Virus record (IMG/VR): IMGVR_UViG_2778261300_000004
Span: 1 to 21,891 of that record
Source of the DNA: a virus
Taxonomy: Duplodnaviria > Heunggongvirae > Uroviricota > Caudoviricetes
Strand: one strand, 5' to 3'
Length of the DNA stretch: 21,891 nt
In this document: piece by piece, positions 1,143 to 17,852 of the stretch
Layout of the letters: every line of letters begins with the position of its first letter
Position numbering within the stretch: position 1 is the first letter of the stretch
Translations under genes and position numbers: made by a program
Notes under the pieces: generated by a model
Told to the model about the DNA's origin: nothing
Databases searched by the model: none
Seen by the model: the letters and a program-made list of their open reading frames with translations, nothing else

Positions 1143-1290
1143 CATTCATAGTGCAGGGATTAAAATCATTCCCACTCAATTATTTACGACAATCATAACC
1201 AATTGAGTGATAACATTTTTCCAAAACCAAATTTTTCCCGTACCGTTTTATATACCGTCACCGAAAATCAGTACCATGAAAAATGCCATG

Positions 1291-3086: not shown

Positions 3087-3213
3087 AAAAACCACCGTTT
3101 AATGTGCATAAGACCCTCCTTAGTTGGTGAGTTTATCATACACAATAAACCATATATGGATTAAAGTTAATCAAGCAAAAGACTACCTCCCCAGGAGGTG
3201 GTTTAGGGATAAC

Positions 3214-3242
3214 AATAAAAAGATGGCGCATTGAGCGCCATC
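3214..3242 (-). terminator. Rho-independent terminator after the acyltransferase gene
   Basis: Hairpin gatggcgc / loop / gcgccatc followed on the minus strand by TTTTTA, immediately past the acyltransferase stop; a second weaker hairpin (acctcc/ggaggt) follows. Confidence 0.55.
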
Positions 3243-3245
3243 ATA

Positions 3246-4382
3246 TTAATTATGTTTGTTTGCTGCAATGTTAATAAAATACCTTTCAAAAAAATGGAAG
3301 GTTAAACATGACACAACACAAAGAAATATAAAGACAATAGTTAGCTGAAGATAAAAAATACCACCACTCATAGGAAGGTTGTTTTCTTTCATTACTTTAA
3401 AAGCGACATAAAAAATCACCCCCTGAAGTAGATATATACTGTAACTAGCCTCTCCAAGCCTTATAAATCCCTTGGTTCTAAATAGACCAAATAGATCGGC
3501 ACCTGAGCATACAGCAAAGAAACCTATCGCTGAAACAAATATGAGCTTTGTGCTAAGAGTGCCTGGTGAAAGTATAATAATGCTTAATATTGATGCAACC
3601 AACAAAATTTCTGATTGCAATTTTGTTATTTTCACCAGCAATGTTATTTCTTTCACCAACATACCAAAACAAAAAGCCGCCCATAAGTTTGCTTTGGCAT
3701 CTGGGAAAAATGATGGTACAAAATACATGGATAAAAAAGTAATGGCTGAGATGAACTCTAACGATTTTTCTCTAAATAAGTAAAGCAAAGGAAGAATGAA
3801 ATAAAACCCCCACTCCCACACAAGAGTCCATGTAACTCCAGCAGTTACATATCTTGAGTTAATCATCCCGTTTATATCTGGTCTTATATTCGTAAACCCA
3901 CAGTCAAACCAATACAAATAGTTCTGATACTTCTGAATAAAATCAGATGGAAGCCCTGTATAATACAATATTACAACTATAGCCAAAAGTGATGACAACC
4001 AAGCCATTGGCAAGATTCTAAACAGCCTTCCCTTATACATTGAAATCCAGTCAACACGCTCTGAGTCTCTTATTTTCCCCCAAAATAAAAAAGCAGTAAT
4101 CATGAAGAAAAAATAAACCCCAATATTTCCTATATAGTACATAAATGATGATGTGAACCACCATTTATTATTTATGGTAAAATTCAAAAAAAAGTCCATA
4201 TGGTCAAAGACGACCATTGATGCAAGTATATATCTTACACCTGTTAATTGCATATTTCTATGCAGCTTCACGCCTTTATCCATAAATGAGAATAAAGGCA
4301 TGGAAAATATTAAAGAAACAAATAATATAGAACCAAAAACCCATATTGCTAAATATATGCTATTCTGCATGATTGACACCAT
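3246..4382 (-). CDS. Integral-membrane acyltransferase family 3 (O-antigen acetyltransferase-like) moron
   Basis: 378 aa, roughly ten hydrophobic segments, strongly AT-rich relative to neighbours; acyltransferase-3-like N-terminal motif (LTGVRYILASMVVFDHM) and FFFMITAF; own terminator; immediately after the tailspike. Confidence 0.65.
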   Translation of the reverse strand: MVSIMQNSIYLAIWVFGSILFVSLIFSMPLFSFMDKGVKLHRNMQLTGVRYILASMVVFDHMDFFLNFTINNKWWFTSSFMYYIGNIGVYFFFMITAFLFWGKIRDSERVDWISMYKGRLFRILPMAWLSSLLAIVVILYYTGLPSDFIQKYQNYLYWFDCGFTNIRPDINGMINSRYVTAGVTWTLVWEWGFYFILPLLYLFREKSLEFISAITFLSMYFVPSFFPDAKANLWAAFCFGMLVKEITLLVKITKLQSEILLVASILSIIILSPGTLSTKLIFVSAIGFFAVCSGADLFGLFRTKGFIRLGEASYSIYLLQGVIFYVAFKVMKENNLPMSGGIFYLQLTIVFIFLCVVSCLTFHFFERYFINIAANKHN

Positions 4383-4453
4383 TTTAAATATTTATATTTA
4401 AATTATCACACATAAATAAATATAACAATAGTGCCAATCACATCAGTTATTGA

Positions 4454-6925
4454 TTAAACCACACTTAACCAACTTGAACCATTCGCAACAACTGGGCCAA
4501 CTCCACCAGCAAGACTGGTATTTGTGTTGTAACAGTGACTCCCCCTAACCGCAGTTGCGTTACTAACATCCGCAAAAATACCAAACCCTTTAATCGCCCA
4601 CGTGACCCCTGAAACCGGTGTAGATGGTATAGCTGAGTTTCCATACTGCATATGCCCACTTATATTTACAGAGCCAGTTGTTGTGGTGAAAACTTCACCC
4701 GTTTTACTTGATACGACATTACCGCCGCAAATAACAGAATAGCCACTAACCAGACTTGTTAATTTGTCTGGCCTGTTGAAAAATCCACCGATAAACTCAA
4801 ACGAGGGAGTGGTATTGTCGTAGTTAACACCAGTACTTATAAAGCTATAACCATTAGATTGGGTTAATTTGTCGAAGATAACTTTCTCTACTTTACCACT
4901 AGACTTTCTGATCACCGCCTGCCCGGAAACCAAATCAATATTCCCCGAAACAATAACGGTGTTTATCTGCCCACGGGTGATACGAACTCCGGCTGCGTCC
5001 GACACACTGGTAGCAAGTAAGGTTTTATCGAAATTAACATTAAGATTGTCTATGCGACTATTGTCGGCACCAGCACCATCACCCCCTACCTCCAGAAAAT
5101 ATGCGACATCACGAGGGCACCGACATTCCAGATTGTAGACACGAACTGCTGATGAGCCAGCCGTCCCAGTGGTTACCGACACTACAGGCACAACTGCTGC
5201 CGAGTAGTTAGCCGAGATAACGCCGATTACAGCGTTATCGACGGTAACAGTACCAGTCCCTACTGTTTTAAATTCAATGGTTCTGTAGCCAGCGCCAGCA
5301 ATTCCACCGACATTGTCGATATTCAGTGTTTTCACGTTGGTTTGTGACAGATTTGGTCCATCTGTCCACACCCTGATTACACTATGCTGGTAGCTACCAT
5401 AAACACCATCTATGCTCAGGTGGCGAACAGGTGTTGTGCTGTTTCCTGCAACCTTTACTGCACATAAAGAATTAATGCCATAAATGCCCTTAACGTCGAT
5501 GTGATTAAACGTTCCGCGCAACCCTAAATCGTAAGCAAGGTAATCCCCTCCGGTCATTGCAAACATGTCATCGCCAGTCGTACCGTACAGATCCCTTACG
5601 TAGGCATAATCAATAGGTGGCTGTAGATGAAGTCCATCAGAGTTGTTATTAAAACGAAGCCCTTGAGCATCAAGATATTGAACGTTGGCTACAAGGTAAG
5701 AATATTTTCTTGCACCTTTAATTTCCAGTCCACCACCTAATTTAACCCGCACTGCTGATGCAATGCAGATGCAATGCATTTCCATCCCATTCGAGGTGCC
5801 TCCCGTAGAATAGTTGTAGTCAACGGTCCCACCTCCCCATATCCCAATATAATCTGAGCGGTTACCAAGATCGGATGTGTTAGAAGCAAAACCTCCCGAG
5901 ACTGTCCTGTTTGACAGAACATATTCCCATTTCTCACTTACAAATACCGGCCTCAGATTGCCAGACGCGCCTGAAACCGTAACGCCGGATTTAATTTCGA
6001 TGTCGGTGTTATTAGGGACTATGATTGGCCCATTGACAAAAATAGTACCCTGATCTGCAAACACAATTCTCGTAATCGTGGACTTACCAGACAGATCGTT
6101 CAGCATGTTCTGCAAATTTGTAGAGTTAACGGTGGCACTATTTGTTGGTAAGACACCATAATCACTTACATAATAAATCCTATCTAATTTGTCTTTTACT
6201 GTCTGTAAAATCGCAAATGGTCCCTTATTTTTATATCCTGTTATTTTTGCACCATTGTTTGCTAACTCAATTAGAACATCTGAAGCCGAGCCTGATTCTG
6301 GCAAAACGGCAATTGGTCTCCCTACATCATTAAAAGCAAGAATTTTATTCGCTCTCTCTTCATTTGATGGTATCTGATCAACATAACTTTCAGGAACTCT
6401 TAGCGTCCTTTTGAAAAGGTTGTCGACATAATAGGCGACACTGTCAACATAATTTTTTGTTGCCGCATCCTGTGGATCTCGTGGGTCTCTAAGATTACGG
6501 ATATAGTTGTTTAGCGCGTCGTACCAGTTCGCGATGCTTGATGGCTTACGCAGCGCAAGGCTAAACAAACTGCGAACCTGCTGAATCAACATCGTTAGCT
6601 TATCAAACGCATCCTCATGCACCTCAGCAAAAAACTTACCCTGATTGCGCAGATCAGTTTCCTGTGTAACCGGTAGCTCTCGTGATATAGAAATCCGATA
6701 ACCGTTAGCCAACGCCTTCGACAGAATTACATTACCGCCGTTGTACCCTCCCGCACCAGTGACTGCGTAATCAGTATCAAGAGCCAGCACAGCGATATTT
6801 TCATCAAGGTCAACCACCTGTACTACCAGATCAGATTCCTGGAAAATCCTAAAGGTATAAGGGAATGAAGTCGTAACACCGTTACCTGTGTATTCGTTGT
6901 GGTCAACTTCTGTTGATACCGTCAT
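4454..6925 (-). CDS. Tailspike / receptor-binding protein, likely beta-helix glycanase
   Basis: ATG 6925 with GGAG RBS (track start is an upstream TTG); N-terminal ~150 aa (MTVSTEVDHNEYTGNGVTTSFPYTF...QETDLRNQGKFFAEVHEDAFDKL) matches the conserved tail fibre/tailspike N-domain as recalled; G/S/T/N/V-rich remainder. Confidence 0.7.
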   Translation of the reverse strand: MTVSTEVDHNEYTGNGVTTSFPYTFRIFQESDLVVQVVDLDENIAVLALDTDYAVTGAGGYNGGNVILSKALANGYRISISRELPVTQETDLRNQGKFFAEVHEDAFDKLTMLIQQVRSLFSLALRKPSSIANWYDALNNYIRNLRDPRDPQDAATKNYVDSVAYYVDNLFKRTLRVPESYVDQIPSNEERANKILAFNDVGRPIAVLPESGSASDVLIELANNGAKITGYKNKGPFAILQTVKDKLDRIYYVSDYGVLPTNSATVNSTNLQNMLNDLSGKSTITRIVFADQGTIFVNGPIIVPNNTDIEIKSGVTVSGASGNLRPVFVSEKWEYVLSNRTVSGGFASNTSDLGNRSDYIGIWGGGTVDYNYSTGGTSNGMEMHCICIASAVRVKLGGGLEIKGARKYSYLVANVQYLDAQGLRFNNNSDGLHLQPPIDYAYVRDLYGTTGDDMFAMTGGDYLAYDLGLRGTFNHIDVKGIYGINSLCAVKVAGNSTTPVRHLSIDGVYGSYQHSVIRVWTDGPNLSQTNVKTLNIDNVGGIAGAGYRTIEFKTVGTGTVTVDNAVIGVISANYSAAVVPVVSVTTGTAGSSAVRVYNLECRCPRDVAYFLEVGGDGAGADNSRIDNLNVNFDKTLLATSVSDAAGVRITRGQINTVIVSGNIDLVSGQAVIRKSSGKVEKVIFDKLTQSNGYSFISTGVNYDNTTPSFEFIGGFFNRPDKLTSLVSGYSVICGGNVVSSKTGEVFTTTTGSVNISGHMQYGNSAIPSTPVSGVTWAIKGFGIFADVSNATAVRGSHCYNTNTSLAGGVGPVVANGSSWLSVV

Positions 6926-7028
6926 GTTCAATCTCCGGATAGTCGCAGCACCCGTTGCGCCGCATACCCGGTTATTTTATTACCTTAAAAACCACATATG
7001 GATAGATAACCCATAAATACGAACAGAT

Positions 7029-7045
7029 ATCACCTTTCAGGTGAT
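7029..7045. promoter_or_regulatory. 17-bp inverted repeat A-TCACC-N5-GGTGA-T, a variant of the operator-like motif
   Basis: atcacctttcaggtgat in the divergent tailspike / SOS-gene intergenic region; same architecture as the TTACC-N5-GGTAA sites. Confidence 0.35.
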
Positions 7046-7081
7046 TTGCAAAACGTGCTGGATAGCAAATAAATTATTTGA

Positions 7082-7101
7082 TACTGTATATTCATACAGT
7101 T
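7082..7101. promoter_or_regulatory. LexA (SOS) box
   Basis: TACTGTATATTCATACAGTT matches the CTGT-N8-ACAG consensus with both arms intact (about 17/20 to TACTGTATATATATACAGTA); 20 bp upstream of ATG 7121. Confidence 0.65.
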
Positions 7102-7120
7102 ATTGCATGGAGAAGATAAG

Positions 7121-7378
7121 ATGCAGCAGTATCACTATCCACTGGAAAACGGATTTACCGAAAAGATTCACACGCCGGGAGGCGTCAGATCACTGGTGGA
7201 GGGATCGCACTTGATGAAATTACTCCGGGATCTCGATAAAGATGGATTTAATGTCGATGGTCCACTTGCCGAACTGACTGCACTGATTAACTACGTCACC
7301 AGCTCACAGATGTCTATGCAGGATCTGCAAACACATCTCGACTATTGTGCCGAACAATTACGAAAACAAACCCGGTAA
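7121..7378 (+). CDS. Small SOS-regulated protein of unknown function (candidate antirepressor or SOS-induced accessory factor)
   Basis: ATG 7121 with GGAGAAG RBS (track start is an upstream TTG at 7103); 85 aa, acidic and soluble; LexA box at its promoter; a hairpin follows. Confidence 0.5.
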   Translation: MQQYHYPLENGFTEKIHTPGGVRSLVEGSHLMKLLRDLDKDGFNVDGPLAELTALINYVTSSQMSMQDLQTHLDYCAEQLRKQTR

Positions 7379-7385
7379 ATTTAAA

Positions 7386-7401
7386 GGCCGCAAGAGCGGC
7401 C
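7386..7401. terminator. Hairpin between convergent genes (terminator-like)
   Basis: ggccgc / aaga / gcggcc; T-rich tract on the minus strand side, weaker on +. Confidence 0.4.
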
Positions 7402-7402
7402 T

Positions 7403-7414
7403 GTGACATGTCAC
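7403..7414. repeat. 12-bp perfect palindrome GTGACATGTCAC, copy 1 of 2
   Basis: Read directly; an identical copy lies at 13756-13767. Confidence 0.8.
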
Positions 7415-7421
7415 GCTCACG

Positions 7422-7562
7422 TTATGACAAGCCTATGTACCCTGCTACACCAGATAATATCAAAACAACTGCAACAGCAAATTCGCCATCGTGAATGATA
7501 CATTTACGGTTCATAACGCCAAGTGCAACAAGCGCAAACACAACAAGAATAAAAGCAATCAT
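7422..7562 (-). CDS. 46-aa hydrophobic membrane peptide (below the ORF-track cutoff)
   Basis: ATG 7562 with AGGATGAG RBS 10 nt after the 750-aa gene stop; MIAFILVVFALVALGVMNRKCIIHDGEFAVAVVLILSGVAGYIGLS gives two hydrophobic segments; stop at 7422-7424. Confidence 0.4.
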   Translation of the reverse strand: MIAFILVVFALVALGVMNRKCIIHDGEFAVAVVLILSGVAGYIGLS

Positions 7563-7571
7563 TTCTCATCC

Positions 7572-9824
7572 TTATTGCGGAGTGACATCCTGTGGTCGCC
7601 ACCAGTATGTCTGGTTAAACTCTTTCTTCGAACGTTGCTCCATTTTACGCAAATAACCTGGTGAAAAATACTCCTGCATCTGGTTAAAGATCATGTGATC
7701 GAGAGCCGCCTTTAAGTACCAGAGATTCGCACCTGGCATCAGACCTTTCCCCAGCTTAACCAGATCACCACCAGTCTGCTCATTCTTCCCTTCCACAGCA
7801 TTTAACGGTATGCCCTGAGCAATCTTCACTACGTCATCAACCAGACCAGCTACCGGGCCAAGCATCGACGCCAGCGCGCCGCTTCCGTACCTGGTGTGAT
7901 CTGACAATAAAAAGTCACCGTAAAGGCCAAGACCACCACCTTTCAGTAGAGCACCAAGCCAGAATTTTGCGGCATCTTCTCCTGTCATCTCTCGAGGATT
8001 ACGACCAGACGCAAGGTCGTTAAGTTGCTGCGACAAAGCGCCAAGAATGGTCGTACTGGCAATAAACGTCGCAATATATGCCGCACGCCCACCAGCAGAC
8101 GGCATACCCATAGCGCGTGACCAGTGACGCATAACCACCGAGATAGGGAACGATTTAAACAGGAAAACACTTCTCGTTAATTCACCTTTCCATGTTCCAC
8201 GCTGAATACCAGAACCGGTTATCAGTTGCTCACGTGCTCCCGGTGTAATAACAGCCATATCAACTTCTTCAGTTACGGCACCGAGCAGTTTACGCATTGC
8301 CTCAAATTTCACGCGTTCAGGCTCACCAAGATGTTTAACTGCTGAATCAGGGATACGCATAATGCTTTCCGGTGTCAGCATCGTATTATTGCCGTTCCCC
8401 CAGTCCTCCTGTTGCGCCAGACTCCATACGCTCCAGTCTGTGTCAGTAATCCCTTTGCTTTTCAGGATACGATAATCAGAATCATCGAGGCTATGAAGGT
8501 CTGGTGTCCGTGACACTACTTCTCCCAGGCTTCCCATCATGGTTACGCCATAGGCGCGCTTGTGCGCATCTGACCATGCTGTAAGCCCACTGGCACGCAT
8601 TACCGCCGTTGCAGCCCAACGAGACACAGACGGCCCCATATTATCCATCGCCCAGCGGTTAACGCTGCCAAGTAGAGATTCCATCGCCAGACCAGCGCGG
8701 CGCGCCCGCGCAAGCTCAGTACGGTTCGTTGGGTCCATAGCTTCAAGCTGGTTGCGGAATAACTGGTTCATTGGAAGGTTGGTCACCTTCGCAGACAGAT
8801 ACATGGTTCCAAGATCAGAGAACGATGACAGCAACGCGGATCCGAGTCTGCTGGCAACCAGCCAGTTGCGGATATTGTCAGACCATCGCGCGATGTGCGG
8901 ATTCGCTACAGGCTGTGTCTTTCCGGAAATAAAGTTGTACAGATTCTCTGTGTTGTTCGCCAGCCGCTCGACTTTACCGGTTTTACTCGGGTTAGCTGTT
9001 GCCGTTTCTGCCTTAACCTGATCAAGAAGGGAGCGGAAAACATGATCGGGGTTTGGACCATATGTTTCCACCAGAGCAATATCTTTACTGATACCTTCCA
9101 GGTGACCGACCATGATTTCCCATAGAGAGCGATCGCCATAAAGTTGTTGATATTGGAGATAGGAATCTGCATCTTTGAAATGTATCTGTCGTGATGCATT
9201 ACCACGGTTAGCACGTGCGCCGGAAATTCGCATTCCGGTATCAGTAAGCTTATTCAGCCCACCAGTAGCGATCGTGTTATAAGCCTCTCCAAGAAATGCA
9301 GACAACTCGGCATCGTTCATCAGTTGTCCATCGGCTCGGGTATAATATTTGCGATCCAGCTTACCTATAACATCGCTAACCCACTTATCCTTTGATACCG
9401 CCCCAACCTTTTCCATAGAATGATGTTGAGGGATCCCCCAGTTTTCGAGATAGCCAATGTCCCCACCAGCATCATTAAACCGGCGGCGCAGCAGCTCTGT
9501 AACTTCTCTCCACGCCTTAGCACCTTTTCTTGCTTTAGCATTGCCAGTATTTTGCCCCCGCATTTCATATACCAGGTCACGTACGCCCGCTTCATCTTCA
9601 AACAGACCAAAAAAGCGAGGATCAACTGCTTCGAATGCCTCCTGCAATTGACTCAATGCATAATCACGGGTGGCTTTTGTTCTGGATTCAACAGAGAGGA
9701 AATTAGATTTACCGTCTGCATTAAAAGCTATAGTACGGTTAAGAGCGCCAAGTTTCCCATCAGCCCCTTGATAGCTATTGATAAATTTATCCAATCTCTG
9801 ACGCGCGGCTATAGTGAGAGCCAC
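7572..9824 (-). CDS. Large virion protein, probably a DNA-ejection/injection (internal) protein of a podovirus-like particle
   Basis: 750 aa, GTG start; soluble N-terminal part and a C-terminal region with hydrophobic and Gly-rich segments; sits upstream of the tailspike where P22-like phages carry ejection proteins. Not portal-like by eye. Assignment is positional. Confidence 0.4.
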   Translation of the reverse strand: MALTIAARQRLDKFINSYQGADGKLGALNRTIAFNADGKSNFLSVESRTKATRDYALSQLQEAFEAVDPRFFGLFEDEAGVRDLVYEMRGQNTGNAKARKGAKAWREVTELLRRRFNDAGGDIGYLENWGIPQHHSMEKVGAVSKDKWVSDVIGKLDRKYYTRADGQLMNDAELSAFLGEAYNTIATGGLNKLTDTGMRISGARANRGNASRQIHFKDADSYLQYQQLYGDRSLWEIMVGHLEGISKDIALVETYGPNPDHVFRSLLDQVKAETATANPSKTGKVERLANNTENLYNFISGKTQPVANPHIARWSDNIRNWLVASRLGSALLSSFSDLGTMYLSAKVTNLPMNQLFRNQLEAMDPTNRTELARARRAGLAMESLLGSVNRWAMDNMGPSVSRWAATAVMRASGLTAWSDAHKRAYGVTMMGSLGEVVSRTPDLHSLDDSDYRILKSKGITDTDWSVWSLAQQEDWGNGNNTMLTPESIMRIPDSAVKHLGEPERVKFEAMRKLLGAVTEEVDMAVITPGAREQLITGSGIQRGTWKGELTRSVFLFKSFPISVVMRHWSRAMGMPSAGGRAAYIATFIASTTILGALSQQLNDLASGRNPREMTGEDAAKFWLGALLKGGGLGLYGDFLLSDHTRYGSGALASMLGPVAGLVDDVVKIAQGIPLNAVEGKNEQTGGDLVKLGKGLMPGANLWYLKAALDHMIFNQMQEYFSPGYLRKMEQRSKKEFNQTYWWRPQDVTPQ

Positions 9825-9835
9825 ACGACGTTTCT

Positions 9836-10090
9836 TTAATGCCGCTTCACCATGTCAGAAAACTCAAGGCGGAGATCAGCATCTTTAGGCATCGGAATAC
9901 CTTTCGCGTCATCAGTACCTTTACGAGCCGCCGCGCCAGCAAGAATTGTCTGCGCAGCGGTTTCAGGAGACACGGAAACATCCGGATTAAACCAGTTTTT
10001 TTCTGCCAAAATACCACCTGGCTTATCCATCAGTATCCCGGCAACGGCAGCAGATGGAGCGTTGGCACTGATCTGCTGTAGTGCTGACAT
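9836..10090 (-). CDS. Short ORF, probably the C-terminal remnant of a truncated upstream virion gene
   Basis: 84 aa from ATG 10090; stop 12 nt before the 750-aa gene start; nothing phage-structural lies upstream of it, only the tRNA island. Confidence 0.3.
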   Translation of the reverse strand: MSALQQISANAPSAAVAGILMDKPGGILAEKNWFNPDVSVSPETAAQTILAGAAARKGTDDAKGIPMPKDADLRLEFSDMVKRH

Positions 10091-10343
10091 ATACACCTGC
10101 CCACCACCAGTGCTCTGCCTGATGGTAGCGGTCTGGATACGTTTAAGGGGCACCCTCCCTTGCTCGGGCAAACGAACCAGGTAGCCGGAATGTGCAAGTC
10201 GAGCGGTTTTATTCCGCGCACGGGGATTCACCATCCCGGCGATTCGGTGTGACACCTCGGAAGAGACGAGGGTGCAACGATGAGAGCATTTATGGAGCCG
10301 CGACAAAGTGTGGTGCCTTAACAGGCTAAGTGCTCTCAGCGTT

Positions 10344-10420
10344 GTGGCATTAGCTCAGTTGGACAGAGCAACCGCCTTCTAAGCGGTTGGTCGCAGGTTC
10401 GAATCCTGCATGCCACGCCA
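10344..10420 (+). tRNA. tRNA-Arg, anticodon UCU (reads AGA/AGG)
   Basis: Cloverleaf folded by hand: 7-bp acceptor stem GTGGCAT/ATGCCAC, D-arm GCTC..GAGC, anticodon stem ACCGC/GCGGT with loop CTTCTAA, T-arm GCAGG TTCGAAT CCTGC, discriminator G and encoded CCA. Confidence 0.9.
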
Positions 10421-10463
10421 GAATCACGCCTAAGGACCGTGATGCCAGAAGTTCCAGGTGCTT

Positions 10464-10506
10464 GGCGGTGATGGTTTCCCTTGAAGGACTACCACCGCCC
10501 TTTTTA
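10464..10506 (+). terminator. Hairpin plus T-run after the tRNA (terminator-like)
   Basis: ggcggtg ... caccgcc arms followed by CTTTTTACA. Confidence 0.35.
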
Positions 10507-10583
10507 CAGCAGGACGCCATTGCGATGACTTCATGCTGTAAACCCGTACAGCCACGGAAGGCATAACTCATTGCTTCCAGTTC

Positions 10584-10608
10584 GCCCACTTCAGTGGGCT
10601 TTTTTTTC
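10584..10608 (+). terminator. Rho-independent terminator
   Basis: gcccac / ttca / gtgggc followed by T8. Confidence 0.7.
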
Positions 10609-10620
10609 TAGTGACTACTG

Positions 10621-10637
10621 ATTACCTTATGGGTAAT
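10621..10637. promoter_or_regulatory. Operator-like inverted repeat A-TTACC-N5-GGTAA-T in the promoter region of the AT-rich gene
   Basis: attaccttatgggtaat, perfect arms; overlaps a candidate -10 TAATAT (10634-10639) about 30 bp upstream of ATG 10669. Confidence 0.5.
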
Positions 10638-10668
10638 ATGCTGCAAACAAATAACACAAGGCCGTGAC

Positions 10669-11487
10669 ATGCTTGACTTCATCCGTGACATTTACTCCTC
10701 TTTCCGCCAAGCATCTCTTGAGCGGGTGAAAAGCCCGTTCCTTGGGGCATTTGTTTTTTCCTGGCTTTGCTTTAATTGGCAGATGTTAGCAATTCTATTT
10801 TTTAGTTCTAAGGATATTGAAAAGCGCCTTGCTATTATTAATGGCTCTTTCGGCATCGTCAGCTTTTTAATTGCGCCAATATGCACTACAGCATTGATAG
10901 TTATCCTTTTACCGCAAATTAATAAATTAATTACAATAATACAAGATAAACCTAACTCAGACACAATTGAAATGAGCCTTGCATCTAAAATAAAGATCGC
11001 CGAACTGCAGCAACTATTAGCAGAAAATGAAGCAAGAAAGAAACTTGCTGATAAAAAAGAAGAACGCTTCATTGAAGAGAATATTATTTCAATAAAAAAA
11101 GACCATGAAAAAGCAATAGATAACCTTAAAGACAAAGAAAGTAAAATCTCAAATCTCACGGACACAATAACTGAACTTCAGAGCAAACTGGTTAAAGCTG
11201 AGGCCACTCTCAAAGTTGAACAGGAGTCAAGATCCCAAGTGCAGAATGAATTGATTATTGAAAAAGAGAACAAGCGGAAATTAGAAGACAACATTCTGCA
11301 CCTTAATTTAAGTTTAAAAAAAAACCAATCAGAATTGGCCATTGCAAAAGAAGCCTATGATAATACCTTGATGGCTTATAATGAACTTAACACAACATTA
11401 AAAAAAGCAGAAAGCTCAATAATAAACTTCAACGCTAACTTTCCTTTTTTAACTGACATAAATAACAGCACCCCAAATACATACTAA
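10669..11487 (+). CDS. AT-rich moron: protein with two N-terminal TM helices and a long coiled coil (candidate exclusion, abortive-infection or host-takeover factor)
   Basis: 272 aa; two N-terminal hydrophobic segments then a K/E/L/N-rich heptad-like region; composition much more AT-rich than flanking phage genes; opposite strand to neighbours; own promoter-like and terminator-like signals. Confidence 0.55.
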   Translation: MLDFIRDIYSSFRQASLERVKSPFLGAFVFSWLCFNWQMLAILFFSSKDIEKRLAIINGSFGIVSFLIAPICTTALIVILLPQINKLITIIQDKPNSDTIEMSLASKIKIAELQQLLAENEARKKLADKKEERFIEENIISIKKDHEKAIDNLKDKESKISNLTDTITELQSKLVKAEATLKVEQESRSQVQNELIIEKENKRKLEDNILHLNLSLKKNQSELAIAKEAYDNTLMAYNELNTTLKKAESSIINFNANFPFLTDINNSTPNTY

Positions 11488-11582
11488 AAAAAAAATAAAA
11501 ATGCATGGGAGCATTTAGTTAGTTTAAATTTAAGTCTAAAGGAGAAAATACAAAAATAAATAACCAATCCACTATGGCATAT

Positions 11583-13052
11583 TTACTCATACGGGTCATA
11601 ATCTATTATAGCCTTACCCTGCTGCTGGCGCGGATCATTAAGTTTTTTTGTGACCGGAAAAGCAAACGTCAGCAGTAGCGCATCGCCTTTACCCGGCGAA
11701 CGCCCAAGCCGCTCCTTGATATCTTCCTTCGGTTCGATAACGATTTTACCGTCCACGCGAACTTTGTACTCTGCCGCCGACAGGTCGTCCGCTGTTTCCT
11801 GGTCATCCAGCATGCCGCCCAGCCTCAGCCATGTCTTGCATGAGTTGAACATCTCCCCACGCTTGTTAAGCATCTGCGGGTCAGTGGACGCACCGCCGAA
11901 CGGAACAAGTTGCCATGTACGTCCCCAGCCATCACCGATTGACTTCAGACCAGTTCCGTAACCGAAGTCGATGAACACTGCGTCAGCCTGGTACTGGTCT
12001 TCAAAGTCAGCGATATGCTTCGCCATAATCAGATCGTCAGTGGTCTTGTTGCCAGTCCACAGCACCTTACTGTGCAGCCCCTGCCGCAGGTATATCACAG
12101 CGTCATCAACGCCGGAGTATGCCGGGTCAACGCCGATTATCACCGGTGCATGTGCCACCTGCGCAGCAGTTACCACCCGTTTCATTGCCTCGTCAGTAAG
12201 ACCGGTAGGGATAAACTGCAATTCAGATGCATCAGGGAATATGCCGCGCACACGGATTTTAACGAAGTCGCTGTCTTCCCCGTAGTCATCAACCCATTTC
12301 TGCAATTGCTGCTTGTTAGTACCTTCCACCGTCCGGCTGTCAATCTGCGCAGTTTTCCAGCGGTGTTTATATTTGCGGAAACATTCACGGAAACGTCCGG
12401 TATTACGCGTCGGGTTTCCGAACGCCACCCAGATAATCTCAGTGTCTTCGTCCGTAAGCGCACCCTCAGCAACTTCCCACACCAGATCCGCAATGTTCGA
12501 CGCTTCATCGAATACCACGATGATGCGTTTGCGCTCGTTGTGTAGTCCGGCGAATGCCTCAGTGTTGTGCTCAGACCAGGGGATTGCGTCAGCTCGCCAC
12601 CGCTTGTCGTGCCCAGGATCATTGCTGTACATCGCAGTAGCGGTACAGGTAAACCAGTCTTTCGTGATAGCAAGGTTCGACCACTTGATAATTTCCGGCC
12701 AGGTCTTCGTTCGTAGCTGGTTGTCGGTGTTGGCGGTCACCACGACCTTACAATCCTCGCAAGTGGACATGCCCCAGTTGATCAGCATTGAGATGAGTGC
12801 TGATTTACCAATACCGTGACCCGAAGCACGTGCCAGCATAAGCGGCTGATAGCGCGTCTCGGGATTCTGCAGGTGATCACGTATCTCTCGGAACGCATCG
12901 GCCTGCCACTGACGTGGGCCGGAAGCATGTGCCAGTTCAGTCCCCTCTTCCCCCCACGGGAACGCATAGAGGGCATAGCCAAGCGGATCGTGAGTGAACC
13001 CTGCAATATCCTCGATCAACTGCTCTTCAGGAGATAACGCTGCATCTGTCAC
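11583..13052 (-). CDS. terL: Terminase large subunit
   Basis: 489 aa; Walker A-like SGHGIGKS; GTG start overlaps the terS stop (GTGA). Confidence 0.8.
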   Translation of the reverse strand: MTDAALSPEEQLIEDIAGFTHDPLGYALYAFPWGEEGTELAHASGPRQWQADAFREIRDHLQNPETRYQPLMLARASGHGIGKSALISMLINWGMSTCEDCKVVVTANTDNQLRTKTWPEIIKWSNLAITKDWFTCTATAMYSNDPGHDKRWRADAIPWSEHNTEAFAGLHNERKRIIVVFDEASNIADLVWEVAEGALTDEDTEIIWVAFGNPTRNTGRFRECFRKYKHRWKTAQIDSRTVEGTNKQQLQKWVDDYGEDSDFVKIRVRGIFPDASELQFIPTGLTDEAMKRVVTAAQVAHAPVIIGVDPAYSGVDDAVIYLRQGLHSKVLWTGNKTTDDLIMAKHIADFEDQYQADAVFIDFGYGTGLKSIGDGWGRTWQLVPFGGASTDPQMLNKRGEMFNSCKTWLRLGGMLDDQETADDLSAAEYKVRVDGKIVIEPKEDIKERLGRSPGKGDALLLTFAFPVTKKLNDPRQQQGKAIIDYDPYE

Positions 13053-13645
13053 TGATTGCCATCCTGACGTTCTTTCAGTCTCTTCCTGGCTGCTGCTATG
13101 CGATCAGCAATTGTCACATTCACATTAACATCCATGCGTTCTTTGAACGCGTTGACGTCGACGTGCTTACCAATCAGTTCGAGGTTCTTCACCTTGTCAG
13201 GCCATTTAATTTTTTTGAGGATTGTCTCTATCGAATCCTCGTTCATGTTCATGATGGTCGATGACAGATCAAAGCCGCTAAGCGTAGTGCGCCAGATTTT
13301 CGGCCACTCGCGGATTGGCTTAAGGCTCCCATCGTCGTTGAGGATATCAATCACGTCCATCTGGTCGATCTCCACCAGGCGCATGAGAACGTAATCGGCA
13401 CTGACGCGCATTCGTTTGTTGCGCTCCTCCATCAACTCGGCAATCCGTTTTTGAATGCGTTCATCGCGCATCATGACACTGGCTTTAACTGCCGCTGTAT
13501 TTGGGGAGAATCCTGCGTTAATCGCTGCCTGAGTCTGGTTTTCAGGCGTTTTGATGTATGACTGGCAATAAGCCTCCTGCATTGCTGTTAGTGGCTTAAA
13601 TTGCGTTGATTTGCGTTTATAGGTTTTAGGTTCAGCAGACATCAT
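13049..13645 (-). CDS. terS: Terminase small subunit
   Basis: Most likely start is the ATG-ATG at 13645 (MMSAEPKTYKRK...); the track ORF begins at an upstream TTG (13723); basic helical protein directly before and coupled to terL. Confidence 0.65.
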   Translation of the reverse strand: MMSAEPKTYKRKSTQFKPLTAMQEAYCQSYIKTPENQTQAAINAGFSPNTAAVKASVMMRDERIQKRIAELMEERNKRMRVSADYVLMRLVEIDQMDVIDILNDDGSLKPIREWPKIWRTTLSGFDLSSTIMNMNEDSIETILKKIKWPDKVKNLELIGKHVDVNAFKERMDVNVNVTIADRIAAARKRLKERQDGNQ

Positions 13646-13755
13646 AACCACCGTGGTAATAGTTACCGTTGTGGTAATAGTACCATGCAAAATAAAGCCG
13701 CCATAGTTGGCGGCAGTATTCAAAACCCGTCAAATTCATCATGCATAATCTACTC

Positions 13756-13767
13756 GTGACATGTCAC
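13756..13767. repeat. 12-bp perfect palindrome GTGACATGTCAC, copy 2 of 2
   Basis: Read directly; overlaps the stop codon of the 13764-14111 gene, just upstream of terS. Confidence 0.8.
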
Positions 13768-14111
13768 ACTATTAATTTCGTTTCATGCCAGCCTTTAGTC
13801 ACCCAGCATTGCGAGTCACCATTACACGGGCATGAATTAACTGGAACTCTCTCGCCGCACTTACCGCAACGTTTTCTGCTGATCGATTTTATACGCCCGC
13901 GCACACGTGCATCATCCTGGCGGATCAGCAGCGCGATGTACTCGGCCATTTCATAGGGATCGCGACCAGGGCGCCGGGCGGCGCAGTTCCGCGCTAGCAT
14001 TTCCTGCTCCTGCTTATCCAGCACCAGTTCAATTTTGCGCTCACCGGCGGCGGACTGCCGAGCGCGCTGCGCGGCTTTGCGTTCTGCGGGGGATTTAGCC
14101 ACGAATCGCAC
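13764..14111 (-). CDS. Small basic protein with Cys-rich C-terminus (possible zinc-binding regulator)
   Basis: Track ORF with GTG start; a second GTG with GGAG RBS three codons in; C-terminal CGKCG...CPCNGDSQC cysteine cluster. Confidence 0.4.
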   Translation of the reverse strand: MRFVAKSPAERKAAQRARQSAAGERKIELVLDKQEQEMLARNCAARRPGRDPYEMAEYIALLIRQDDARVRGRIKSISRKRCGKCGERVPVNSCPCNGDSQCWVTKGWHETKLIV

Positions 14112-14216
14112 TCCACGCCAGATTGATTAATGACTCCCAGGTAATATAAACCCGGATACCAGCAGCCAGGCCGAAACCAATCACCATGGCATAAAGCAGA
14201 GCGTTGCACTTGTTCA

Positions 14217-14762
14217 TCACTTCACCTCCTGCGGCGGCTCCGGTAGCGGCATCCAGTGTGACGGCTCACATACCCCCTCAACACCATTCATGTAAAAGAA
14301 TTGAAATAACCCTTTACCTTTGTGAAACCCTACCATCTGCTCTTTTGTGTCTGAGCAATAAACCAAAACATCTTCTTCGCTTGGCATTCGCTCACTACAG
14401 CTTATCCAACCATCCGGAGTTACCGGAGAGTTGCTATTTACATCGAAGTTTGGCTCTGCGTCCTGAACCAGGAGGATGTAACCATTCTTGGCTGTATCAA
14501 GTTCTAACGCCTCGGTGACGGTGCCGAAATAGCGATTACCTAAATCAGCATCACAAGTGCTTACATCAATGGAAACTTCCATGCCTTCGATTAATTCTGG
14601 CAAGTTGTAAGTTTGGTTTACAGGCTCTGCTTCCAGCGATGCCAGAGCAATTCGTGCCAGTTCTTCCGCTTCTTCTGCTGGCAGTACAACGTTGCTACCA
14701 GGTCCGTATGTTTCGCGCCACTGCTTGATTGTCAGCAGTCGCTCTTTGGTAATAGTGGTCAT
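14217..14762 (-). CDS. Phage accessory protein, DUF551-like C-terminus
   Basis: Start taken at ATG 14762 (MTTITKERLL...) with strong GGAG RBS; C-terminal ...CEPSHWMPLPEPP resembles the DUF551 family as recalled. Confidence 0.5.
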   Translation of the reverse strand: MTTITKERLLTIKQWRETYGPGSNVVLPAEEAEELARIALASLEAEPVNQTYNLPELIEGMEVSIDVSTCDADLGNRYFGTVTEALELDTAKNGYILLVQDAEPNFDVNSNSPVTPDGWISCSERMPSEEDVLVYCSDTKEQMVGFHKGKGLFQFFYMNGVEGVCEPSHWMPLPEPPQEVK

Positions 14763-14763
14763 A

Positions 14764-15276
14764 TCACTCTCCTTTGATGCGAATGCCAGTAGCGCGGATT
14801 GCATCGATGACTTCAGAAACTTTGTATGCCATTACCGTTTGGTAATCATCGTGAAAATCTGTTCGATGAAGCATGCTGCTACGTTCCGGGAGCAGTATTT
14901 CCCGCGCTTCCAGTTCTGCAATGCGCTTACCTCCATCCGCGATTACTCCATCGTAATACTCACGCTGCTCGTTGAGTTTTGATTTTGCTGCTTCAAGCTC
15001 AACACGCAGTTTCCCTACCGTTAGCGCAATTTCCTCGTTCTCCTGGTCGCGGCGTTTGATGTATTGCTGGTTTCTTTCCCGTTCATCCAGCAGCGCCAGC
15101 ACGGTTTCTGGTCCGGTCAGAAATTTGAAGGCGTTGAGCGCATCAATATCCACACCGTAATCTTTAAGTTCCTGTTCACTTAACAAATCATCATCAACTG
15201 GCAACATTAACAGGCGTTCCATTGCTGGAGTTGCACGTTCTGCCGCCTCACGCAGTACCTGATAGTCAATTGTCAT
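14764..15276 (-). CDS. Acidic coiled-coil protein (Ea22-like?)
   Basis: ATG 15276 with GGGTGG RBS; stop and next start nearly abut. Confidence 0.45.
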   Translation of the reverse strand: MTIDYQVLREAAERATPAMERLLMLPVDDDLLSEQELKDYGVDIDALNAFKFLTGPETVLALLDERERNQQYIKRRDQENEEIALTVGKLRVELEAAKSKLNEQREYYDGVIADGGKRIAELEAREILLPERSSMLHRTDFHDDYQTVMAYKVSEVIDAIRATGIRIKGE

Positions 15277-15917
15277 TCTCGCCACCCTTCACAGTTGTAA
15301 TCACTACAGCCTTCAAAATCATATGGGCTGTACTGCCAGGTTATTTTTCCGCAATGCGGACAATTCCAACGCACCTTCCCGCTTCGCGACTTCTTTCTTC
15401 TGTTCTGCTCTTTCAACCAGTCAGGCATGACCAAACCTGCGCCCTGAACCATTGTTCTGCGGTTAAATTTATTGATATTGAACGTCCGGCGCTTTGCTGA
15501 ATCAGCAATGGAAAATGGCAACCAAACTATTCCTGGTTCGTTTTTGTTGGCGACGCTAAAGATGGTCGCTTTACTGAAGTCATCTGTTGGCAATCCACCG
15601 TGTTGAAGCCAGTAAACATCGTTGCCGTTCCAGCTACCTTTTTTGTAGGCCACATACGCAGTGCAATCTGGCTCAATCAGGTTTTCTGTAGGGATGTACT
15701 GGCAATCAACGTGCCACACAGCCATTGCATCCACGCTATCAGCGCAAACAGGCTGATCGATATCTCGACCACAATTCCAGGCTTTTTGGGCTTCTTCCAG
15801 CGTGTAAACATGAGCGCGATCGATATTAGAACTGTAACCATTGCCGTTATGGCAATGGAATGAAGCGTTATTACCCACAGTTTCACGCAAGCACATCATG
15901 TAAAAGCGGTTATTCAC
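15273..15917 (-). CDS. Hypothetical phage protein with C-terminal Cys cluster
   Basis: GTG start overlapping the upstream stop (GTGA); C-terminal CPHCG...C...C motif. Confidence 0.45.
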   Translation of the reverse strand: MNNRFYMMCLRETVGNNASFHCHNGNGYSSNIDRAHVYTLEEAQKAWNCGRDIDQPVCADSVDAMAVWHVDCQYIPTENLIEPDCTAYVAYKKGSWNGNDVYWLQHGGLPTDDFSKATIFSVANKNEPGIVWLPFSIADSAKRRTFNINKFNRRTMVQGAGLVMPDWLKEQNRRKKSRSGKVRWNCPHCGKITWQYSPYDFEGCSDYNCEGWRE

Positions 15918-16477
15918 TGGATGACTCCTTTACGAAGCTGTTCAGCGATATCTTCGAGAACGCCATCAGAGAATGAGCGGTCAAAATCTCCTTCCGGCAC
16001 ATTAGCCATAAAATCAGTAGAGGTAAGAATCATCCGGGCAATATCCTCGGCGTTCTTCGCAGTATCATCAATAAAACCAGCTTTCCAGGCAGCCAACATT
16101 CTGTTCGCCACAAAGTAAGCCCCTTCCTTGCGTGCTTCAGTCTTCATTTCATCCAAGAAAGCATCGGTCGCAGGAGTGGTTTTTTGTGGTGATATGGCGA
16201 TACGAATTGTTTCAAGAGCTGGATCTGTTTCCACTGTTGGCACCTTGATAAAACCAAGCTGCACGCCATTCATAATGAACGTGCGGCGATCCTCACATAT
16301 CGCCTTCAGTCTCGCATTCTCCGCAGCCAGCACCGAAAACTTCTCGTGTGCCAACTTAACAGCCGCATCAGCCTGCTTAATTGACTCAATCGCTTTCTGC
16401 TGGTCTTCGGCCAGCGCATTAGCACGCTCCAGTTGCACTTCCAGTTGCGTTGCCAAATCGCTGATTCCATGGTGCAC
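15914..16477 (-). CDS. Hypothetical protein with N-terminal coiled coil; true start uncertain
   Basis: Track ORF from GTG 16477; N-terminal region overlaps a second frame that carries a small zinc-ribbon-like ORF. Confidence 0.4.
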   Translation of the reverse strand: MHHGISDLATQLEVQLERANALAEDQQKAIESIKQADAAVKLAHEKFSVLAAENARLKAICEDRRTFIMNGVQLGFIKVPTVETDPALETIRIAISPQKTTPATDAFLDEMKTEARKEGAYFVANRMLAAWKAGFIDDTAKNAEDIARMILTSTDFMANVPEGDFDRSFSDGVLEDIAEQLRKGVIQ

Positions 16478-16596: not shown

Positions 16597-16705
16597 GGTA
16601 AGTACTGTTATTAGTATTGGGATTACGGTTATTTTGTGCTGACACAAAAAAAAGATCAACCAGATTTGGTTTTTTATTACCTTTGAGGTGCGAATAGATA
16701 TGAAA

Positions 16706-16725: not shown

Positions 16726-16746
16726 ACAGAGGGTTGTGGCTGGATA

Positions 16747-16977: not shown

Positions 16978-17012
16978 AGCTATTGCCTGATATTTATTTC
17001 AGATAATAAATA

Positions 17013-17131: not shown

Positions 17132-17716
17132 ATGAAAAGTATCCAGGACGTCCGCAGGCAAAATCTCAACGACTTGATCGACCGTGAATTCAATGGTGTT
17201 CAGACGCGGATGGCAGAAAAACTTGGAACTCAGGCAAATCTGGTAAACCGCTGGGCTCTTGGCAAGAAGGTTATCGGCGATCAGGTTGCGCGAAAAATTG
17301 AAGCTGCCGCCAATAAACCCCGTAACTGGCTTGATATCGATCGCTCTCTTTCTCAGGAAGGTTTTCAGCCTGTCGGCCCAAGCGACATTGGTCAGCTGGC
17401 GGCTCACAACCTGGAGCGCTGGATGAGCGAAAGCCGCGACCTTTCAACACAGGGAAAACTTCACCGCGCATCCGGCGTAGCCCAGGTGACAATCAGCCGC
17501 CTGTTAAACAATGAGGTCAGCGTTTCCATTTCCACCCTGGAGAATGTTGCATCCGCATTCGGGCGTCATGGCTATGAATTACTGATTCACCCGCACGACC
17601 CTGCGACCATCAACTATGACCGCTCGCGCTACGCATTGTTACCCGAAACCGAGAAAGCAAAGATCGAAAGTTACATTGAATTTGTCATCAACCAGAACGA
17701 AAAAAACAAACAATAA
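17132..17716 (+). CDS. Prophage repressor candidate with two HTH (XRE-type) domains and no recognisable peptidase/autocleavage domain
   Basis: 194 aa; HTH-like segments around residues 25-45 and 110-130; no S24-like Ser/Lys motif region seen by eye; followed by a strong terminator. Confidence 0.55.
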   Translation: MKSIQDVRRQNLNDLIDREFNGVQTRMAEKLGTQANLVNRWALGKKVIGDQVARKIEAAANKPRNWLDIDRSLSQEGFQPVGPSDIGQLAAHNLERWMSESRDLSTQGKLHRASGVAQVTISRLLNNEVSVSISTLENVASAFGRHGYELLIHPHDPATINYDRSRYALLPETEKAKIESYIEFVINQNEKNKQ

Positions 17717-17773: not shown

Positions 17774-17790
17774 ATTACCTGACGGGTAAT
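17774..17790. promoter_or_regulatory. Operator site (perfect arms) upstream of the early-operon promoter
   Basis: attacctgacgggtaat. Confidence 0.5.
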
Positions 17791-17808
17791 TTTTTTAACT
17801 CATATCTA

Positions 17809-17836
17809 TTGACATCAAACCAAATACGCATAATCA
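17809..17836 (+). promoter_or_regulatory. Candidate sigma70 promoter of the + strand early operon
   Basis: Perfect -35 TTGACA (17809-17814); -10 candidate TAATCA 16 bp downstream; bracketed by two operator sites. Confidence 0.4.
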
Positions 17837-17852
17837 TTACCTCAACGGTAAC
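17836..17852. promoter_or_regulatory. Operator site overlapping the -10 / start region
   Basis: attacctcaacggtaac. Confidence 0.5.

What the first reader, a model, noticed from the sequence alone, without database searches (positions are those of the whole stretch)
7029..7378. Strong LexA box in front of a small gene between the ejection and tailspike genes, in a prophage whose repressor appears non-cleavable
A near-consensus SOS box (TACTGTATATTCATACAGTT, both CTGT/ACAG arms intact, 8-nt spacer) sits 20 bp upstream of an 85-aa soluble protein gene, on the opposite strand to the structural genes around it. The prophage repressor candidate (17132-17716) is a tandem-HTH protein with no visible S24-type autocleavage domain. 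In phage 186 (Tum) and the Salmonella Gifsy/Fels-2 prophages, induction of such repressors is driven by a LexA-controlled antirepressor encoded away from the immunity region. This gene could be that antirepressor; alternatively it is an SOS-induced toxin or defence factor in the slot where P22-like phages carry sieA. A variant operator-like palindrome (7029-7045) lies 37 bp upstream of the box.
Basis: partly seen in the sequence, partly recalled or inferred. Interest (0 to 1): 0.75.

Follow-up and report, generated by a model that had tools for sequence, protein, structure and literature searches.

The report
Known SOS-controlled prophage antirepressor (Ant)

Summary
A LexA box (7082-7101, TACTGTATATTCATACAGTT) lies 19 nt upstream of an 85-aa gene (7121-7378, +), which is antisense to the flanking late genes. 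This is the only credible SOS box in the window.

The gene is not an orphan. Its product is 87% identical to Ant of Salmonella phage SPC32H (PDB 5D50 chain E, E=2e-46). The 194-aa tandem-HTH protein at 17132-17716 is the cognate repressor Rep (5D50 chain A, E=4e-42) and has no S24 domain.

The window holds an epsilon15/phiV10-like (Uetakevirus) prophage, not a P22-like one. The LexA box is kept at the same place in 81 of 85 related loci. SPC32N differs from SPC32H there by one C-to-A change in the CAG arm.

The palindrome at 7029-7045 belongs to the ATTACC-N5-GGTAAT family. That family clusters around rep, and the epsilon15 GenBank record annotates it as repressor-binding sites, including one at this position.

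So the antirepressor reading is supported, and the system was published (Kim & Ryu 2013; Kim et al. 2016).

Two local points:
- The prophage is defective: about 14 kb of structural genes and the 3' end of the integrase gene are deleted.
- Family databases and RefSeq still label this protein hypothetical.

Interest is low and the novelty class is "already known".

The parts
7082..7101 (.). LexA (SOS) box TACTGTATATTCATACAGTT, overlapping the likely ant promoter
   Evidence: 17/20 match to consensus, with none as good in 100 shuffles. PWM score 25.7 bits, the top site in the window by 15 bits. Conserved at the same position in 10 Uetakevirus genomes and in 81 of 85 related loci. SPC32N carries C->A in the CAG arm.
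7059..7092 (+). Candidate ant promoter elements: TGGATA(7059-7064)-17-TACTGT(7082-7087), or TAGCAA(7063-7068)-18-TATATT(7087-7092). Both -10 candidates lie inside the LexA box.
   Evidence: Permissive hexamer scan. The CTGGATAG block is invariant in 10 phages from 4 host genera. The standard consensus scan found no promoter here. The transcription start is not mapped, so this is inference.
7121..7378 (+). ant: 85-aa antirepressor, orthologue of SPC32H Ant
   Evidence: 5D50_E E=2.3e-46, 72/83 identical. Syntenic with the annotated ant of SPC32H/SPC32N. RBS GGAG at 7109-7112.
7029..7045 (.). 17-bp palindrome ATCACC-N5-GGTGAT, a presumed Rep operator between the divergent ant and tailspike promoters
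   Evidence: Member of the ATTACC-N5-GGTAAT family: 9 sites with <=2 mismatches against 0.66 expected. The equivalent site in epsilon15 is annotated protein_bind 'repressor'. Present in 82 of 85 related loci.
6974..7002 (-). Candidate tailspike promoter TCCATA-17-TAAAAT (TTCATA-17-TAGAAT in SPC32H)
   Evidence: Permissive scan. It coincides with invariant columns of alignment A1. Inference only.
7385..7402 (.). GC-rich hairpin between ant and the late genes. The T-run lies on the minus strand, so it terminates the gp17-gp18 late transcript. It also lies 7 nt after the ant stop codon.
   Evidence: Terminator scan. Annotated as a rho-independent terminator in epsilon15 and phiV10.
7422..7562 (-). 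46-aa integral membrane protein (phiV10 p21 / SPC32H_019 homologue), the neighbour of ant
   Evidence: PHROG 7892 E=4e-32. Synteny.
4454..6931 (-). Tailspike gene, divergent from ant
   Evidence: N-terminal part matches phiV10 p25. Annotated as tailspike in PAS61 and SPC32H.
17132..17716 (+). rep: 194-aa repressor, homologue of SPC32H Rep (N-terminal DNA-binding domain, middle HTH dimerisation domain, C-terminal tetramerisation/Ant-binding domain). No S24 domain.
   Evidence: 5D50_A E=4e-42 over residues 1-190, and 5D4Z_A over residues 89-190. Pfam gives HTH families only. 97% nt identity to the phiV10 p40 region. Domain names from PMC9986798.
17013..17077 (.). Three operator-like palindromes between the cro-like gene (16747-16977, minus) and rep
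17774..17852 (.). Two operator palindromes downstream of rep, ahead of the recET early operon
   Evidence: Equivalent sites are annotated in epsilon15 at 32479-32632.

Best explanation
The locus is the SOS-sensing arm of the lysis-lysogeny switch of an epsilon15/phiV10-like (Uetakevirus) prophage, of the type described for Salmonella phage SPC32H.

Proposed mechanism:
1. In an undamaged cell, host LexA sits on the box at 7082-7101. The box covers the -10 region of the ant promoter, so ant is silent.
2. Rep (17132-17716) holds the early promoters shut by binding ATTACC-N5-GGTAAT operators around its own gene. It probably also holds the late transcription units shut, through operators there.
3. 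Rep has no autocleavage domain, so RecA* cannot remove it directly.
4. DNA damage leads to LexA self-cleavage, ant is transcribed, and the 85-aa Ant binds the C-terminal domain of Rep.
5. The DNA-binding Rep tetramer breaks into dimers that bind DNA poorly, and lytic genes are derepressed.

Shown here: homology of both proteins to the crystallised pair, the strength, uniqueness and conservation of the LexA box, the synteny, and the operator family.

Inferred from SPC32H work and not tested for this E. coli pair: LexA binding, SOS induction, and Ant-Rep binding.

Because this copy of the prophage has lost most structural genes and the end of its integrase gene, derepression cannot yield virions.
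For: - Ant is 87% identical to PDB 5D50 chain E 'Anti-repressor protein'.
- Rep matches 5D50 chain A 'Repressor' over its full length.
- The epsilon15 GenBank note ties 5D50 to phage SPC32H, and PMC9986798 ties 5D4Z to it.
- SPC32H and SPC32N annotate the syntenic gene as ant.
- SPC32N differs from SPC32H in the aligned intergenic region only by C->A in the CAG arm of the box.
- The LexA box scores above 30 known E. coli boxes and is unique in the window.
- The box is conserved across Escherichia, Salmonella, Enterobacter and Klebsiella phages while the flanking bases vary.
- Rep has no S24 domain.
- It also says the C-terminal domain of Rep mediates both tetramerisation and Ant binding (PMC9986798).
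- A review states that Kim & Ryu 2013 showed LexA-dependent antirepressor induction (PMC7380047).
Against: - Nothing was measured for this E. coli-lineage pair.
- Rep is only 43% identical to SPC32H Rep, and 47.5% in the C-terminal Ant-binding part. Ant-Rep recognition is therefore assumed, not shown.
- No promoter passes a standard consensus scan, and the transcription start is unknown.
- I could not read the two primary papers. Their content is taken from my memory of the abstracts, from citing papers and from database records.
- The only experimental paper on an E. coli Uetakevirus switch (ZX5, PMC9782041) calls a different, Bro-N-domain protein 'the anti-repressor' and ignores this gene.
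Confidence: 0.9

Rival explanations
1. The circuit is a relic with no role for its own prophage. Because the element is defective, Ant matters only in trans, for example by co-inducing an intact phiV10-like prophage in the same cell, or not at all.
For: - Relative to phiV10, the window lacks phiV10 coordinates 3147-14351 and 14636-17059 (portal, capsid and tail genes) and 27853-28977 (integrase 3' end).
- The integrase ORF is 314 aa against 416 aa.
- Trans-acting antirepressor crosstalk is documented for Gifsy and Fels-2 prophages (PMC3121763 as listed; summarised in PMC7380047).
- Ant is much more conserved than Rep (87% against 43%), which would favour cross-reactivity.
Against: - ant, its LexA box, rep, the operators, the lysis cassette, recET and the terminase genes are all intact. 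The switch can therefore still control many genes in cis.
- No second Uetakevirus prophage is visible in the window.
Confidence: 0.3
2. The 85-aa protein is an SOS-induced toxin, defence factor or RecA modulator (DinI-like) rather than an antirepressor.
For: It is a small LexA-controlled gene on the opposite strand, in a variable 'moron-like' position. Pfam, NCBIfam and PHROG give it no function.
Against: - 87% identity to a protein crystallised in complex with the phage repressor.
- No PADLOC hit, and no DinI, Bro-N or KilA-C Pfam hit at E<=0.1.
- It is strictly syntenic and conserved with rep across the genus.
Confidence: 0.03
3. The real antirepressor of E. coli Uetakeviruses is the Bro-N-domain protein (phiV10 p23 / ZX5 ORF4), and the small gene is accessory.
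For: Overexpressing ZX5 ORF4 lowered the prophage fraction and repressor transcription (PMC9782041). In phiV10 that gene lies just downstream of the small gene on the same strand.
Against: - The window has no Bro-N gene. phiV10 coordinates 19523-20543 are simply absent between 7378 and 7384, as in SPC32H and epsilon15.
- The small Ant is therefore the only candidate here.
- The ZX5 study did not test or mention the small gene, LexA or SPC32H.
Confidence: 0.05

Closest known systems
Ant-Rep-LexA antirepression switch of Salmonella phage SPC32H (Kim & Ryu 2013, J Virol 87:11775; Kim et al. 2016, PNAS 113:E2480; PDB 5D50, 5D4Z)
   Same: - Orthologous Ant (87% identical) and homologous Rep over its full length.
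- Same gene order: gp17-like gene, small membrane protein, ant on the opposite strand, tailspike.
- LexA box at the same position in the alignment of the regions upstream of ant, with the same CTGGATAG and GCATGGAGAAGA flanks.
- Same operator palindrome upstream.
- Same genus (Uetakevirus).
   Different: - Host lineage is E. coli (phiV10-like).
- Rep is only 43% identical.
- Ant is one residue shorter, with 11 substitutions, 10 of them in residues 2-56 and the last at 65.
- The spacer of the LexA box differs (ATATTCAT against ATGTTTAT).
- The prophage is defective.
- Nothing was tested experimentally for this pair.
Tum of coliphage 186, and the LexA-controlled antirepressors of Gifsy-1/-3 and Fels-2 (Shearwin 1998; Lemire et al. 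2011, PMC3121763)
   Same: Same logic: a non-cleavable repressor is inactivated by a small LexA-repressed antirepressor encoded outside the immunity region.
   Different: No Pfam, NCBIfam or PDB search run here returned a Tum or Gifsy-type protein. From my recollection of the Kim & Ryu abstract, SPC32H Ant is a structurally distinct class. The partner repressor has a different architecture.
P22 Ant (immI region: mnt, arc, ant)
   Same: An antirepressor gene placed next to the tailspike gene in a short-tailed temperate phage.
   Different: P22 Ant is large, is controlled by Mnt and Arc rather than LexA, and is not needed for SOS induction because P22 C2 is cleavable (PMC7380047). No homology: no P22_AR or ANT Pfam hit.
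Bro-N-domain 'anti-repressor' of phiV10 (p23) and vB_EcoP_ZX5 (ORF4)
   Same: Where present, it lies in the same intergenic slot and on the same strand as ant. It is reported to favour the lytic cycle.
   Different: It is a different protein family and is absent from this window. No LexA link is reported.

Membership tests
SPC32H-type Ant antirepressor (Uetakevirus) | Sequence homology to the crystallised Ant (PDB 5D50 chain E) over the whole length | tested here: met
   E=2.3e-46, residues 2-84 aligned with 3-85, 72/83 identical.
SPC32H-type Ant antirepressor (Uetakevirus) | Cognate Rep-type repressor in the same element: N-terminal DNA-binding domain, middle HTH domain, C-terminal tetramerisation/Ant-binding domain, no S24 autocleavage domain | tested here: met
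   17132-17716 matches 5D50_A over residues 1-190 (E=4e-42) and 5D4Z_A over residues 89-190. Pfam gives HTH families only. Identity is only 43%.
SPC32H-type Ant antirepressor (Uetakevirus) | LexA box overlapping the ant promoter | tested here: met
   Box at 7082-7101, 25.7 bits, unique in the window. It aligns with the SPC32H box, and the SPC32N mutation falls in it. Overlap with the promoter is inferred from hexamer matches only.
SPC32H-type Ant antirepressor (Uetakevirus) | Conserved position: opposite strand, between the small membrane-protein gene and the tailspike gene | tested here: met
SPC32H-type Ant antirepressor (Uetakevirus) | Ant physically binds Rep and disassembles the Rep tetramer; ant is induced by the SOS response | not testable with these tools
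   Known for SPC32H from secondary sources. Needs biochemistry for this pair.
DinI-like, Bro-N/KilA-C or P22-type antirepressor families | Match to the Pfam models of those families | tested here: not met
   hmmscan at E<=0.1 returned only a sub-threshold DUF724 hit. The one weak link is to the C-terminal 50 residues of PHROG 1760 'anti-repressor' (E=5e-7).
Tum (phage 186) / Gifsy GfoA-GfhA antirepressors | Sequence homology to Tum or GfoA | not tested
   No reference sequences were at hand. None appeared among PDB, Pfam or NCBIfam hits. The resemblance is functional only.
Anti-phage defence or toxin proteins | Match to a PADLOC model | tested here: not met
   No hit.

The most novel reading that the evidence does not exclude
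Two readings are not excluded.

(a) The conserved Rep operator is fixed 36 nt upstream of the LexA box, between the divergent ant and tailspike promoters. It may place ant (and the tailspike gene) under Rep as well as LexA. Ant would then derepress its own promoter, a positive-feedback commitment step not described in the sources I could read.

(b) In this non-excisable prophage, which has lost its virion genes, the intact LexA-Ant-Rep switch may be retained because it works in trans on co-resident Uetakevirus prophages, or because it drives SOS-triggered expression of the surviving lysis, tailspike and recET genes.
Probability: 0.2. Interest if true: 0.4.

Novelty: already known. Interest (0 to 1): 0.15.

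Why it matters
As biology it adds little. The LexA-Ant-Rep switch of epsilon15-like phages was dissected genetically in 2013 and structurally in 2016.

Its practical value is for annotation. The locus occurs in about 10% of complete E. coli genomes (531 of 5426), and every listed hit is labelled 'hypothetical protein'. Pfam, NCBIfam and PADLOC have no model for it, and PHROG 450 is 'unknown function'. A 2022 paper on an E. coli member of the genus assigned the antirepressor role to a different gene. Transferring the SPC32H annotation would explain how these prophages sense SOS. Some of them lie in O157, O26 and O103 STEC backgrounds.

Tried and rejected
- Primary papers: I tried to read both by DOI and by PMC id, and the epsilon15 genome paper. 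None is held, so the mechanism comes from citing papers, database records and my memory of the abstracts.
- Promoters: the standard promoter scan found none for ant or the tailspike gene. Only a permissive scan gave candidates, so the promoter assignments stay tentative.
- Operator as promoter spacer: I considered a minus-strand promoter that uses the operator as its spacer (TTGCAA-17-ATCTGT). I rejected it because the -10 is poor and not conserved.
- Other LexA-like sites: 5902 (2.0 bits) and 10536 (about 10-11 bits) fall below all known boxes, so I rejected them as chance.
- Family searches: Pfam, NCBIfam and PADLOC returned nothing for Ant.
- Co-variation with Rep: I asked whether the symmetric C/G change in the window's operator (ATCACC...GGTGAT against ATTACC...GGTAAT) tracks Rep specificity. 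It does not. The window's other operators keep ATTACC/GGTAAT, and phiV10, whose rep region is 97% identical in nucleotides, carries the change in one arm only (ATTACC...GGTGAT).
- Same deleted prophage elsewhere: no complete E. coli genome covers at least 80% of the window, or the deletion junctions, in one piece.

Full report
**What is there.** Between two minus-strand late genes lies a 189-bp intergenic region followed by a plus-strand 85-codon ORF (7121-7378), with GGAG 8 nt before the ATG. The sequence TACTGTATATTCATACAGTT occupies 7082-7101. It is one of three CTGT-N8-ACAG matches in the window (0.33 expected). It is the only one that matches the 20-mer SOS consensus at 17/20, and no match that good occurred in 100 shuffles.

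The box scores 25.7 bits, higher than every training site, with a heterology index of about 1.65. The runner-up in the window scores 10.9 bits, and the other two CTGT-N8-ACAG matches fall below the weakest known box.

**What the element is.** The window is not P22-like. The region matches Escherichia phages phiV10, TL-2011b, PAS61 and ZX5 and Salmonella phages of the epsilon15 group, all in genus Uetakevirus. A BLAST map against phiV10 shows collinearity from the att core ATTGAGTGGGAATGATT at 1164-1180 (core sequence from PMC9782041) to the integrase start at the window's right end.

Three deletions interrupt that collinearity: phiV10 coordinates 3147-14351, 14636-17059 and 27853-28977. Together they remove the portal, capsid and most tail genes. 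They also truncate the gp17/p20 homologue (7572-9824) at its N-terminus and cut the integrase to 314 of 416 aa. The prophage is therefore defective and probably cannot excise.

**What the gene is.** The 85-aa protein matches PDB 5D50 chain E, 'Anti-repressor protein', at E=2.3e-46 with 72 of 83 aligned residues identical. The 194-aa protein at 17132-17716 matches 5D50 chain A, 'Repressor', over residues 1-190 (E=4e-42), and the 5D4Z fragment over residues 89-190. These entries are from Salmonella phage SPC32H (epsilon15 GenBank note; PMC9986798).

In the SPC32H and SPC32N records the syntenic gene is annotated 'ant: anti-repressor protein'. It lies between a small membrane-protein gene and the tailspike gene on the opposite strand, exactly as here. 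Rep has HTH hits only and no S24 peptidase domain.

**Conservation of the control region.** I aligned the intergenic region of ten phages from Escherichia, Salmonella, Enterobacter and Klebsiella hosts. The alignment keeps TACTGT...ATACAGT in register while the spacer and flanks vary. The conserved blocks are the CTGGATAG block about 20 nt upstream, the RBS block and a 17-bp palindrome.

SPC32N differs from SPC32H in this stretch by one base, C->A in the CAG arm. From memory, this is the mutation Kim & Ryu reported as making Ant constitutive. It drops my PWM score from 24.9 to 17.9 bits.

In 85 related loci (IMG/VR and phage records) the box is intact in 81. The four exceptions are:
- SPC32N;
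- a contig end;
- a contig that starts with a Nextera adapter;
- one prophage (L020) in which an insertion sequence, whose 406-aa ORF I take to be a transposase (not confirmed by a search), has landed inside the box.

**The palindrome.** ATCACCtttcaGGTGAT at 7029-7045 belongs to the family ATTACC-N5-GGTAAT. That family has 9 sites with two or fewer mismatches in the window, against 0.66 expected. Three degenerate copies lie between the cro-like gene and rep. Two lie just downstream of rep, ahead of the recET operon. Others lie ahead of the terminase and portal-side units.

The epsilon15 GenBank record annotates seven such sites as protein_bind 'repressor, lysogeny', including the one at the position equivalent to 7029-7045, with an adjacent IHF site. 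phiV10 has the same set. So this is an ordinary member of the presumed Rep operator set rather than a special variant.

Its symmetric C/G change does not track Rep specificity, because the window's other sites keep T/A. The spacing to the LexA box has no indels across the Escherichia, Salmonella and Enterobacter phages.

The palindrome lies between the best candidate ant promoter and a candidate tailspike promoter, and overlaps the core of neither:
- ant: TGGATA-17-TACTGT or TAGCAA-18-TATATT, both with the -10 inside the LexA box;
- tailspike: TCCATA-17-TAAAAT at 7002-6974.

Whether Rep bound there controls the tailspike gene, ant or both is unknown to me.

**Mechanism.** Steps 1-3 below are taken from SPC32H through citing papers.
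1. Rep binds DNA as a tetramer.
2. [quoted passage not shown]
3. The C-terminal domain of Rep mediates both tetramerisation and Ant binding (PMC9986798).
4. LexA self-cleavage lets the antirepressor be made (PMC7380047).

For this window, homology, synteny and the cis elements are shown. LexA binding, SOS induction and Ant-Rep recognition are inferred. One caveat is that Rep is only 43% identical to SPC32H Rep: 54% in the DNA-binding domain, 34% in the middle domain and 47.5% in the C-terminal part. Ant is 87% identical, and residues 66-84 are identical.

**Comparison and novelty.** P22 Ant, DinI and Bro-N/KilA-C models do not match. The only remote link is to the C-terminal ~50 residues of PHROG 1760 'anti-repressor'.

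The Bro-N 'anti-immunity' gene that follows ant in phiV10, and that the ZX5 paper calls the antirepressor, is absent here.

The finding is therefore already known. What remains open is the annotation gap. The locus is in 531 of 5426 complete E. coli genomes, and every listed hit is labelled 'hypothetical protein'. No Pfam, NCBIfam or PADLOC model exists, PHROG 450 is 'unknown function', and among 130 homologous clusters a few UniRef entries say 'Anti-repressor protein' while the other names given are 'hypothetical protein'.

Also open is the role of an intact SOS switch in a prophage that can no longer make virions or excise.

Noticed in passing
window 1164-21891 (junctions near 9845-9848, 10126-10130 and 20965-20969): The prophage is a decayed phiV10-like element of about 20.7 kb against 39 kb. 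Three deletions remove the portal-to-gp16 structural genes, the N-terminus of the gp17/p20 homologue and the 3' end of the integrase gene. Terminase, tailspike, lysis cassette, recET, rep, cro-like and ant stay intact. No complete E. coli genome in the collection shares these junctions.
   Followed up: partly
window 1164-1180: att core ATTGAGTGGGAATGATT lies exactly at the left prophage boundary. The host flank (1-1071) encodes a glycine-zipper lipoprotein and a DUF5384 protein. The core is the one reported for integration at the 3' end of guaA.
   Followed up: partly
window 10344-10420 (+): tRNA-Arg (anticodon TCT) inside the prophage, in the region that phiV10 annotates as hypothetical protein p04. 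ARAGORN and Rfam both call it, and RefSeq annotates it in related prophages.
   Followed up: partly
window 10621-10637 and 10669-11487 (+): A perfect operator palindrome (ATTACCTTATGGGTAAT) lies 32 nt upstream of a 272-aa plus-strand gene that replaces phiV10 p03. The protein matches PHROG 13369 (unknown function), has weak SMC/coiled-coil similarity, and has no Pfam or PADLOC hit. It may be a Rep-controlled moron.
   Followed up: partly
L020 1438-1500 (IMGVR_UViG_2563366870_000004): In one related prophage an insertion sequence, whose 406-aa ORF (218-1438) I take to be a transposase (not confirmed by a search), has landed inside the LexA box. It leaves only the right half (CATACAGTT) in front of ant, so the promoter and left arm are gone.
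   Followed up: partly
L041 1-40 (IMGVR_UViG_3300045988_013119): The contig starts with Nextera transposase adapter sequence (AGATGTGTATAAGAGACAG) fused to the middle of the LexA box. This is an assembly artefact in the public collection.
   Followed up: no
window 7121-7378 versus 17132-17716: Ant is far more conserved than its partner between the E. coli and Salmonella lineages: 87% against 43% identity, with Ant residues 66-84 identical. This hints that Ant could act across immunity types.
   Followed up: partly
window 3246-4382 (-) and 4454-6931 (-): An Acyl_transf_3 O-antigen-modifying gene sits next to a tailspike whose C-terminal part has no phiV10 match. Only 6435-6931, the N-terminal head-binding part, is shared. 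This is the usual serotype-specific cassette swap.
   Followed up: no
window 7121-7378; PMC9782041: The 2022 paper on E. coli Uetakevirus ZX5 assigns the antirepressor role to a Bro-N-domain protein and never mentions the small SPC32H-type Ant, LexA or SPC32H. ZX5 nevertheless encodes an Ant 97.6% identical to this one.
   Followed up: yes
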